This document shows, in pieces, positions 33,301-36,300 of a DNA stretch of 64,000 nucleotides. The stretch comes from Escherichia coli O127:H6 str. E2348/69 (GTDB lineage: Bacteria; Pseudomonadota; Gammaproteobacteria; Enterobacterales; Enterobacteriaceae): NCBI RefSeq assembly GCF_000026545.1, contig NC_011601.1; one strand, given 5' to 3'. The position numbers are program-made. Within the stretch, counting starts at the first letter, position 1; the number at the start of each line of letters is the position of its first letter.

Positions 33301-36300
33301 GACCATCACGCACGCCGAACTCTGGCTCCAGCCATTCCGGACGCGCAGCATCGTCGCCCGCACGTTCCAGCATCGCAGCAACGTTGCCCAGCTGCCACGG
33401 ATTTGCAACCAGCGCGGTTTTCGCTTCTGCAGGCGTCGGCGCATGACGGATCAGTTCGATGATCGGGTCGATGTTCGCCAGCGCCACGGCTAATGCTTCA
33501 AGGATATGAGCACGATCGCGAGCTTTACGCAGTTCGAAAATAGTACGACGGGTCACTACTTCACGGCGGTGACGAACAAACGCCGCGATGATATCTTTCA
33601 GGTTCATGATCTTCGGCTGACCATGGTGCAATGCCACCATGTTGATACCGAAAGAAACCTGCAGCTGGGTCTGGGAGTAGAGGTTGTTGAGCACAACTTC
33701 ACCGACCGCATCGCGTTTCACTTCAATCACGATGCGCATACCGTCTTTGTCAGACTCGTCACGCAGCGCGCTGATGCCTTCCACGCGTTTTTCTTTTACC
33801 AGTTCCGCAATTTTTTCGATCAGGCGTGCTTTGTTTACCTGATACGGAATTTCGTGGACGATAATGGTTTCACGTCCGGTTTTGGCGTCAACTTCTACTT
33901 CGGCACGAGCGCGGATATATACCTTGCCGCGACCGGTACGGTAAGCTTCTTCAATACCGCGACGACCGTTAATGATTGCCGCCGTCGGGAAGTCCGGCCC
34001 CGGGATGTGTTCCATCAGCCCTTCAATGCTGATGTCTTCATCATCGATATACGCCAGACAACCGTTGATGACTTCCGTCAGGTTGTGCGGCGGGATGTTG
34101 GTTGCCATACCTACGGCGATACCGGAAGAACCGTTCACCAGCAGGTTAGGAATTTTGGTTGGCATGACGTCCGGAATTTTTTCCGTGCCGTCATAGTTAT
34201 CAACGAAATCGACCGTCTCTTTTTCGAGATCAGCCATCAGTTCATGGGCAATTTTCGCCAGACGGATTTCCGTATAACGCATTGCCGCCGCAGAGTCGCC
34301 GTCGATGGAACCGAAGTTACCCTGACCGTCTACCAGCATGTAACGCAGCGAGAATGGCTGCGCCATACGGACGATCGTGTCATAAACCGCCGAGTCACCA
34401 TGGGGATGGTATTTACCGATTACGTCACCAACGACACGGGCAGATTTTTTATAGGCTTTGTTCCAGTCATTGCCTAGTACGTTCATGGCGTAAAGTACGC
34501 GACGGTGTACCGGCTTCAGGCCATCTCGGACATCTGGCAGCGCACGGCCAACAATGACCGACATCGCATAATCCAGATAGGAGCTCTTCAGCTCTTCCTC
34601 AATGTTGACCGGTGTAATTTCTCTCGCAAGGTCGCTCATCTAACCGCTATCCCTCTACTGTATCCCGGATTCAAAGGTCGCAAATTATAACACAGCCGCG
34701 CAGTTTGAGGTAAACCTATACGCTTTATTCACATCCAATGCCTGATATACTCGTTTGTCTTGCCAATTACGGAGTAGAAGTGCCAATGAATGCCGAAAAA
34801 TCGCCGGTAAACCACAACGTAGACCACGAAGAGATCGCTAAATTTGAAGCCGTCGCCTCCCGCTGGTGGGATCTTGAAGGTGAGTTCAAACCGCTGCACC
34901 GCATTAACCCGCTGCGTCTGGGCTATATTGCCGAGCGTGCTGGCGGTTTATTTGGCAAAAAGGTGCTCGATGTCGGTTGTGGCGGCGGCATTCTGGCCGA
35001 GAGTATGGCGCGGGAGGGCGCGACGGTGACCGGTCTGGATATGGGCTTTGAGCCATTGCAGGTGGCAAAACTGCACGCACTGGAAAGCGGCATTCAGGTG
35101 GATTACGTGCAGGAAACCGTGGAAGAGCACGCGGCAAAATATGCCGGACAGTATGACGTGGTGACCTGTATGGAGATGCTGGAGCACGTCCCCGATCCTC
35201 AGTCAGTGGTCAGAGCCTGTGCGCAACTGGTGAAACCGGGCGGCGATGTCTTTTTCTCGACGCTTAACCGCAACGGCAAGTCATGGCTGATGGCGGTGGT
35301 TGGTGCTGAATATATTTTGCGCATGGTGCCTAAAGGTACACATGATGTGAAGAAGTTTATTAAACCGGCAGAATTGCTGGGCTGGGTGGATCAGACCAGT
35401 CTTAAAGAACGGCATATGACCGGGCTGCATTACAACCCTATCACTAACACCTTTAAGCTCGGCCCAGGCGTGGATGTGAACTATATGCTGCACACGCAGA
35501 ATAAGTGAGGTTGTTGTTTGGATTCATCCGGCAACCGCGCCAAGCCTGATGCGACGCTTGCCGCGTCTTATCAGGCCTACAAATGCTCCCCGTAGGCCAG
35601 ATAAGGCGTTTACGCCGCATCCGGCAACAGTGCCGGTCAGACAGCGATTACCATTTCACTGTCATCGACAAAAACCCTGCCGTCTGGGCAAAATCATCAC
35701 TCCCTTTCTGCCACGCCACGCTACCACGCAGCGAAACTCGTTGACTGATATTGCCCGTTATTCCCACTTTTATTTCACCCCGTTGCTTCGCCGCATCGTC
35801 ACTGATAGTGCTGCCATCCTCTTCAATTTCCGTCGCATGGGGATCGTGATAATAATTCAGATCTAACGTTGGCGTGACACCAACAGCAGTACGCCATTCG
35901 CTGTGTAAACCCAACCGCATCTGAATATCATCACCCTGCGATTGTGACACGCGCGCATGGTTAGCGGCGGTAAAATCATCCTGCTGCACGCCCTGATAAA
36001 TCACCTGCGTCTGCGGTTCAATCACCACACCATGCCCCGGTAACCACTGATAACCGGCTTCCAGCGAGGCGATAATCCCCGACGAGTGGTAATGATCCAC
36101 GCCATCGTCTTGTTCGGAAACATCATTGTTAAACCACGCATATTGCAGCCAGCTATCCAACCAGGCCCCCTGCTTCTGATTACCGTGCTGATACCAGCTT
36201 GAGGTCAGCCCAACGGCATAACCGTGGTTCTGGTTATCGGCGCGAGTTCCGGTCATATTCGAGCGGCTGTCGCCCTGGTTATCGCTGTAGCCACCAACAA

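What the first reader, a model, noticed from the sequence alone, without database searches (positions are those of the whole stretch)
34379..34393. gyrA quinolone-resistance-determining region is wild type (Ser83, Asp87)
The minus-strand codons are TCG (Ser83, plus-strand coordinates 34391-34393) and GAC (Asp87, 34379-34381) in the motif [10 protein letters not shown]. The common fluoroquinolone-resistance substitutions S83L and D87N/G/Y are therefore absent, predicting a quinolone-susceptible gyrase as far as gyrA is concerned.
Basis: partly seen in the sequence, partly recalled or inferred. Interest (0 to 1): 0.3.

Follow-up and report, generated by a model that had tools for sequence, protein, structure and literature searches.

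The report
Wild-type gyrA quinolone target site

Summary
gyrA is window 32012..34639 on the minus strand (875 aa). Codon 83 is TCG (34391-34393) and codon 87 is GAC (34379-34381), inside [10 protein letters not shown]. The gene is colinear with K-12 gyrA, so the numbering holds. All other gyrA positions I know to give quinolone resistance (51, 67, 81, 82, 84, 106, 119, 196) are wild type, and residues 67-106 are identical to K-12. The only amino-acid differences from K-12 are D678E and A828S. The same protein, WP_001281253.1, occurs in UTI89 and the type strain ATCC 11775.

All 64,000 bases are 100% identical to E. coli O127:H6 E2348/69 'variety 2' (LT827011) and its derivative EPEC1. Another E2348/69 assembly (CP059840) differs in these 64 kb only by TCG->TTG at codon 83 (S83L) and a 2-bp intergenic indel. 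The window therefore represents the lineage that was not selected for nalidixic-acid resistance. In the matching genome parC, parE and gyrB are also wild type at their known sites; plasmids could not be checked.

About 49% of 5,426 complete E. coli genomes share this wild-type core haplotype. Verdict: real, correctly interpreted, ordinary and already known. Susceptibility is a genotype-based prediction, not a measured result.

The parts
32012..34639 (-). gyrA coding sequence (DNA gyrase subunit A, 875 aa)
   Evidence: ORF list, translation, NCBIfam TIGR01063 at 1309.5 bits, Pfam DNA_topoisoIV plus 6 DNA_gyraseA_C blades, annotated as gyrA in 5425 of 5426 E. coli genomes.
34322..34441 (-). Quinolone-resistance-determining region, codons 67-106
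   Evidence: Amino-acid sequence identical to K-12 MG1655. Only silent differences, at codons 85 (GTC>GTT), 91 and 100.
34391..34393 (-). Codon 83, TCG = Ser (wild type)
   Evidence: The plus-strand base 34392 (G) is the only substitution between the window and E2348/69 assembly CP059840, where it is A, giving TTG = Leu.
34379..34381 (-). Codon 87, GAC = Asp (wild type)
34274..34276 (-). Codon 122, TAT = catalytic Tyr122
   Evidence: Its role as the active-site tyrosine is from established knowledge of GyrA.
34684..34692 (-). TGTTATAAT: consensus -10 hexamer with a TG extension, 45 nt upstream of the ATG; probable gyrA promoter -10
   Evidence: Seen directly. The two-hexamer scan did not call it because there is no good -35. 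The promoter assignment is inferred, not tested.
32156..32158 (-). Codon 828, TCG = Ser (Ala in K-12), a lineage polymorphism
   Evidence: The identical protein occurs in UTI89 and ATCC 11775.
32606..32608 (-). Codon 678, GAA = Glu (Asp in K-12), a lineage polymorphism
   Evidence: The identical protein occurs in UTI89 and ATCC 11775.

Best explanation
This is the ordinary chromosomal gyrA gene of E. coli O127:H6 E2348/69, carrying the ancestral, drug-sensitive allele. GyrA, together with GyrB, forms DNA gyrase. Tyr122 makes the transient covalent DNA break. Ser83 and Asp87 lie beside the cleavage site and anchor the water-Mg2+ bridge through which quinolones are positioned in the cleavage complex. 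With both anchors intact, and every other known gyrA resistance position wild type, the enzyme is predicted to be fully quinolone-sensitive. The window matches the E2348/69 lineage that was not selected on nalidixic acid. A sibling stock acquired resistance by a single C>T change in this codon (S83L). Shown here: gene identity, codon identity and indexing, strain identity, and the S83L difference between assemblies. Inferred: the susceptible phenotype, and the identification of CP059840 as the published NalR lineage.
For: Codons and numbering. Gene family. Colinearity with solved E. coli GyrA structures. All 10 listed gyrA resistance positions are wild type, and residues 67-106 are identical to K-12. 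Purifying selection in the gyrA frame: 59 synonymous against 2 nonsynonymous codon changes relative to K-12. The window is 100% identical over 64,000 nt to LT827011 and LT903847. CP059840 differs only by S83L and a 2-bp indel. PMC5491219 states that E2348/69 exists as a StrR lineage and a NalR lineage, the latter deliberately selected from the original strain. PMC5685641 gives PRJEB18716 and PRJEB18717 for the parental WT E2348/69 and EPEC1 genomes; the record descriptions of LT827011 and LT903847 fit these. PMC9917921 reports that E. coli gyrase uses both the serine and the acidic residue as bridge anchors. parC, parE and gyrB of the matching genome are wild type at their known sites. The same GyrA protein is present in UTI89 and ATCC 11775.
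Against: No phenotype was measured. Susceptibility also depends on determinants outside the window, namely plasmid qnr, aac(6')-Ib-cr, qepA and oqxAB, and efflux or porin regulation. The plasmids of the matching assembly could not be retrieved. The original reference genome (NC_011601/FM180568) is not in the collection, so the window's exact source record cannot be named.
Confidence: 0.94

Rival explanations
1. The strain is nevertheless quinolone-resistant or has reduced susceptibility through determinants other than gyrA: parC/parE/gyrB mutations, plasmid-mediated Qnr or efflux, or altered porins.
For: The window covers only 64 kb and cannot exclude distant or plasmid genes. ompC and the mar/sox-regulated inaA lie in the window but were not analysed for changes.
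Against: In the genome identical to the window, parC (56, 57, 78, 80, 84), parE (416, 444, 445, 458, 460, 475, 529) and gyrB (426, 447, 464) are all wild type. Every gene annotated in the 64 kb is an ordinary chromosomal gene, with no qnr-like gene. PMC5491219 attributes only streptomycin resistance to the small plasmid pE2348-2, and describes nalidixic resistance as a separately selected trait.
Confidence: 0.04
2. The non-K-12 residues D678E and A828S in the C-terminal domain change gyrase behaviour or drug response, so the allele is not truly 'wild type'.
For: They are the only two amino-acid differences from K-12.
Against: The identical protein (WP_001281253.1) is encoded by UTI89 and by the E. 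coli type strain ATCC 11775, and 491 genomes have a gyrA at least 99% identical. This is a common lineage allele. Both residues lie in the C-terminal DNA-wrapping beta-propeller region (Pfam PF03989 blades), far from the 67-106 drug pocket. From my own knowledge, these two substitutions are regarded as neutral phylogroup B2 markers.
Confidence: 0.02
3. The coordinates belong to a different gene on the plus strand (ORF 33506..34477, 323 aa), and the gyrA reading is incidental.
For: A 323-aa ATG-initiated ORF on the plus strand overlaps the finding.
Against: It has no Pfam match. Over that span, K-12 against the window shows 17 synonymous and 0 nonsynonymous changes in the gyrA frame, but 1 synonymous and 16 nonsynonymous in the plus-strand frame. 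No such gene is annotated in any genome examined.
Confidence: 0.005

Closest known systems
E. coli K-12 MG1655 GyrA (b2231, NP_416734.1), the reference quinolone-susceptible allele
   Same: Same length (875 aa), no indels, identical residues 67-106 including Ser83 and Asp87, identical catalytic Tyr122, and the same yfaA-gyrA-ubiG-yfaL neighbourhood.
   Different: 61 nucleotide differences, of which 59 codon changes are silent. Two amino-acid differences, D678E and A828S.
GyrA WP_001281253.1 of UTI89, ATCC 11775 and E2348/69 'variety 2' (LT827011)
   Same: The protein is 100% identical. The DNA is 100% identical to LT827011 and LT903847 over the whole 64-kb window.
   Different: UTI89 and ATCC 11775 differ by 17 silent nucleotides in gyrA.
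GyrA WP_001281221.1 of E2348/69 assembly CP059840 (S83L allele)
   Same: Same strain background. Identical at 2627 of 2628 gyrA nucleotides, and at all but 3 positions of the 64 kb.
   Different: Codon 83 is TTG (Leu), the classic first-step quinolone-resistance substitution. The window has TCG (Ser).

Membership tests
DNA gyrase subunit A (GyrA, TIGR01063) | Full-length match to the equivalog model above its curated cut-off, and scoring above the ParC models | tested here: met
   TIGR01063 scores 1309.5 bits against a cut-off of 877. parC_Gneg scores 581 bits, below its cut-off of 628.9.
DNA gyrase subunit A (GyrA, TIGR01063) | N-terminal breakage-reunion domain plus a six-bladed C-terminal beta-propeller | tested here: met
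   PF00521 covers residues 32-507. PF03989 matches in 6 stretches.
DNA gyrase subunit A (GyrA, TIGR01063) | Catalytic tyrosine (Tyr122 in E. coli numbering) | tested here: met
   Codon 122 is TAT at 34274-34276.
DNA gyrase subunit A (GyrA, TIGR01063) | GyrA box (QRRGGKG) in the C-terminal domain, which distinguishes GyrA from ParC | tested here: met
   The sequence [12 protein letters not shown] is visible in the translation. That this motif is diagnostic is from my own knowledge.
DNA gyrase subunit A (GyrA, TIGR01063) | Conserved chromosomal position between yfaA and ubiG | tested here: met
   Same neighbours in K-12 and in E2348/69.
Quinolone-susceptible (wild-type QRDR) gyrA allele | Ser at 83 and Asp at 87 | tested here: met
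   TCG and GAC.
Quinolone-susceptible (wild-type QRDR) gyrA allele | No substitution at the other reported resistance positions (51, 67, 81, 82, 84, 106, 119, 196) | tested here: met
   All are identical to K-12. The list of positions is from my own knowledge of resistance-mutation catalogues.
Quinolone-susceptible (wild-type QRDR) gyrA allele | Wild-type MIC, or quinolone-induced cleavage by the enzyme | not testable with these tools
   Requires culture or biochemistry.
E2348/69 nalidixic-acid-resistant laboratory lineage | A resistance mutation in gyrA (S83L, as seen in CP059840) | tested here: not met
   The window has Ser83. CP059840 has Leu83. The window is therefore not from that lineage.
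E. coli O127:H6 strain E2348/69 (non-NalR lineage; LT827011-like) | Sequence identity over the whole window | tested here: met
   64,000 of 64,000 nt are identical to LT827011 and to LT903847.

The most novel reading that the evidence does not exclude
The 64 kb differ between two E2348/69 assemblies at only two places, and each lineage holds one derived state. CP059840 has gyrA S83L. The window lineage has a +AT insertion (ATAT in place of AT) in the glpT-glpA divergent regulatory region at 47377-47378. The most novel reading not excluded is that this 2-bp insertion is a real laboratory-acquired regulatory mutation that alters glpT/glpABC expression (glycerol-3-phosphate use, and fosfomycin uptake through GlpT) in the widely used non-NalR stock, rather than a neutral change or an assembly artefact. 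Nothing novel is left for the gyrA codons themselves.
Probability: 0.08. Interest if true: 0.2.

Novelty: already known. Interest (0 to 1): 0.08.

Why it matters
For biology it matters little. A wild-type gyrA resistance region is the default state, shared by about half of complete E. coli genomes. It has two practical uses. First, it is a correct genotype-based prediction of quinolone susceptibility for this chromosome, now extended to parC, parE and gyrB. Second, base 34392 is a one-nucleotide marker that separates the two circulating laboratory lineages of the EPEC prototype strain E2348/69 (Ser83 against S83L), which helps in authenticating stocks and choosing the right reference genome.

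Tried and rejected
- **Mis-indexing of codons:** rejected. The gene is the same length as K-12 gyrA with no indels, and is colinear with PDB chains.
- **A plus-strand gene at the coordinates:** rejected by the absence of a Pfam hit and by the substitution pattern.
- **The original reference NC_011601.1:** not in the collection.
- **Plasmid records LT827012 and LT827013 of the matching assembly:** these accession numbers were my guesses, and no such records are in the collection. Plasmid-mediated quinolone resistance is therefore untested.
- **Primary papers:** Iguchi 2009 (PMC2612414), Nisa 2013 (PMC3807458) and a quinolone-mechanism review (PMC3985860) are not held. I relied on PMC5491219, which summarises the first two, and on PMC9917921 for the mechanism.
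- **Literature searches:** combining E2348, gyrA and nalidixic gave nothing directly relevant. LT827011 is named in no held paper.
- **Promoter/terminator scan:** it did not call the gyrA promoter, because it requires two hexamers. The TGTTATAAT element is visible directly.

Full report
**Observation.** Reading the minus strand from 34700 to 34300 shows an ATG at 34639, followed by an open frame that runs to 32012 (875 aa). Counting codons from that ATG puts codon 83 at 34391-34393 (TCG, Ser) and codon 87 at 34379-34381 (GAC, Asp), within [13 protein letters not shown].

**Identity of the gene.**
- The protein matches the NCBIfam equivalog TIGR01063 (gyrA) at 1309.5 bits against a cut-off of 877. 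It scores below the cut-off of the Gram-negative ParC model.
- Pfam finds the DNA_topoisoIV breakage-reunion domain (residues 32-507) and six DNA_gyraseA_C blades.
- The GyrA box QRRGGKG is visible in the translation.
- The first 521 residues align position for position with solved E. coli GyrA chains such as 3nuh, 6rks and 1ab4.
- The gene has the same length as K-12 MG1655 gyrA (2628 nt) with no indels.

**The whole resistance-relevant sequence.**
- Relative to K-12 there are 61 nucleotide differences: 59 silent codon changes and two amino-acid changes, D678E and A828S.
- Residues 67-106 are identical to K-12. Silent changes in and just beyond that region fall at codons 85 (GTC>GTT), 91, 100 and 111.
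- Positions 51, 67, 81, 82, 83, 84, 87, 106, 119 and 196 are all wild type, and the catalytic Tyr122 is present. This list of positions comes from my own knowledge of resistance-mutation catalogues.
- D678E and A828S lie in the C-terminal propeller region. The identical protein (WP_001281253.1) is encoded by UTI89 and by the type strain ATCC 11775, so this is a common lineage allele and not something peculiar to this strain.

**The other strand.** Three plus-strand ORFs of 141-323 aa overlap gyrA, and one of them (33506..34477) covers the finding. None has a Pfam match. Over 33506..34477, the K-12-versus-window substitutions are 17 synonymous and 0 nonsynonymous in the gyrA frame, but 1 synonymous and 16 nonsynonymous in the plus-strand frame. 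These ORFs are by-products of the gyrA reading frame.

**Source of the window.**
- gyrA is 100% identical to E. coli O127:H6 E2348/69 records.
- Fetching the matching regions and comparing them base by base shows that all 64,000 nt are identical to LT827011 ('EPEC E2348/69 variety 2') and to LT903847 (EPEC1, an engineered derivative).
[quoted passage not shown] The record descriptions of LT827011 and LT903847 fit these; the accessions themselves appear in no held paper.
- The original reference NC_011601 is not in the collection, so I cannot say which record the window was cut from.

**The one point of added interest.**
- A third E2348/69 assembly, CP059840, differs from the window in these 64 kb at only two places. 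One is plus-strand base 34392 (G>A), which turns codon 83 from TCG into TTG, i.e. S83L. The other is a 2-bp indel at 47377-47378.
- PMC5491219 explains the background. E2348/69 circulates as a streptomycin-resistant lineage and as a nalidixic-acid-resistant lineage that was deliberately selected from the original strain. Both have been sequenced (Iguchi 2009; Nisa 2013).
- I infer that CP059840 represents the NalR lineage and the window the other one. The inference rests on genotype only.
- Ser83 (TCG) is also the codon in K-12, UTI89 and ATCC 11775, so it is the ancestral state and not a reversion.

**Mechanism.** Quinolones trap the gyrase-DNA cleavage complex. Their keto-acid group chelates a Mg2+ ion whose coordinating waters are held by the conserved serine and acidic residue of GyrA. 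PMC9917921 reports evidence that E. coli gyrase uses both residues as anchors and that the bridge mainly positions the drug. With both anchors intact, the enzyme encoded here is expected to be fully sensitive, whereas S83L removes one anchor. This step rests on established knowledge; no phenotype was measured.

**Other chromosomal targets.** In LT827011 I located parC, parE and gyrB and compared them with K-12.
- parC 56, 57, 78, 80 and 84 are wild type.
- parE 416, 444, 445, 458, 460, 475 and 529 are wild type.
- gyrB 426, 447 and 464 are wild type.
- The differences from K-12 lie outside these sites: ParC D475E and T718A; ParE V136I; GyrB R142C, S492N and D639N.
- Plasmid records of the assembly could not be retrieved under the accession numbers I guessed.
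- The annotated genes in the window itself are ordinary chromosomal genes, running from eco and mqo through ompC, rcsDBC, ato, yfa, gyrA, ubiG, yfaL, nrdAB and glp to arnBCA. There is no qnr-like gene.

**How common is this state?** I used 33-nt queries spanning codons 80-90. Megablast's 28-base word makes these match only when codons 81-89 are exact.

| Haplotype (codons 83 / 87) | Genomes (codon 85 GTT + GTC) | Share of 5,426 | Calls |
|---|---|---|---|
| Ser83 / Asp87 (wild type) | 2013 + 639 = 2652 | 48.9% | 34, 35 |
| S83L alone | 413 + 72 = 485 | 8.9% | 37, 38 |
| S83L + D87N | 1371 + 331 = 1702 | 31.4% | 39, 40 |
| Other haplotypes | 587 | 10.8% | by subtraction |

The wild-type state is thus the single most common one and carries no surprise.

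**Regulatory context.** A perfect -10 hexamer with a TG extension (TGTTATAAT, 34692-34684 on the minus strand) lies 45 nt upstream of the ATG. The simple two-hexamer scan did not report it because there is no good -35. I take it to be the gyrA promoter, on the basis of position and my own recollection that the gyrA promoter relies on its -10 region. This was not tested.

**Verdict.** The feature is an ordinary, already known, wild-type allele of an essential gene. Its only practical value is as a correct genotype-based prediction of susceptibility and as a one-base marker separating E2348/69 laboratory lineages. Interest is low.

Noticed in passing
window 47377-47378 (glpT-glpA divergent intergenic region): The window (like LT827011 and LT903847) has GCGATATG where K-12, UTI89 and E2348/69 assembly CP059840 have GCGATG. 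This is a derived +AT insertion 84 nt upstream of the glpT start. Apart from gyrA S83L, it is the only difference between the E2348/69 assemblies in these 64 kb. It may be a real laboratory-lineage mutation or an assembly artefact.
   Followed up: partly
window 52540-52717 and 52771-52948: A 178-nt direct repeat at 96% identity. The first copy lies in the 3' end of rpnE (annotated as an ISNCY family transposase). The second lies in the adjacent annotated pseudogene fragment ('missing N-terminus'). Together they suggest a partial tandem duplication of the rpnE 3' end (annotation).
   Followed up: no
window 12051-12140 / 12165-12254; 42381-42457 / 42462-42538; 35591-35633: Short imperfect intergenic repeats at 87-93% identity. 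They lie between rcsB and rcsC, between nrdA and nrdB, and between ubiG and yfaL, and one copy is inverted relative to another. They look like REP/BIME-type palindromic elements.
   Followed up: no
L013:19472-21886 (gyrB of LT827011, outside the window): GyrB differs from K-12 at R142C, S492N and D639N, all outside the 426-447 quinolone region. I did not check whether these are common lineage polymorphisms.
   Followed up: no
E. coli genome collection: One gyrA copy among 5431 places sits on a record classed as a plasmid, and a plasmid record also appears among the S83L+D87N haplotype matches. One of the 5426 genomes gave no gyrA match. These are possibly replicon mis-assignment or assembly problems.
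   Followed up: no
window 32403-32828, 32873-33493, 33506-34477 (+ strand): Long ORFs antisense to gyrA. They have no Pfam hits, and the substitution pattern shows they are not under coding selection. The 32403-32828 ORF has an internal stop in K-12.
   Followed up: yes
window 6851-7966 (ompC), 2177-3820 (yojI), 44001-44651 (inaA), 60933-64000 (arnBCA): Several envelope and drug-related genes share the window with gyrA: the porin OmpC, the microcin J25 efflux transporter YojI, the mar/sox-regulated inaA, and the start of the arn lipid A modification operon. None was examined for variants.
   Followed up: no
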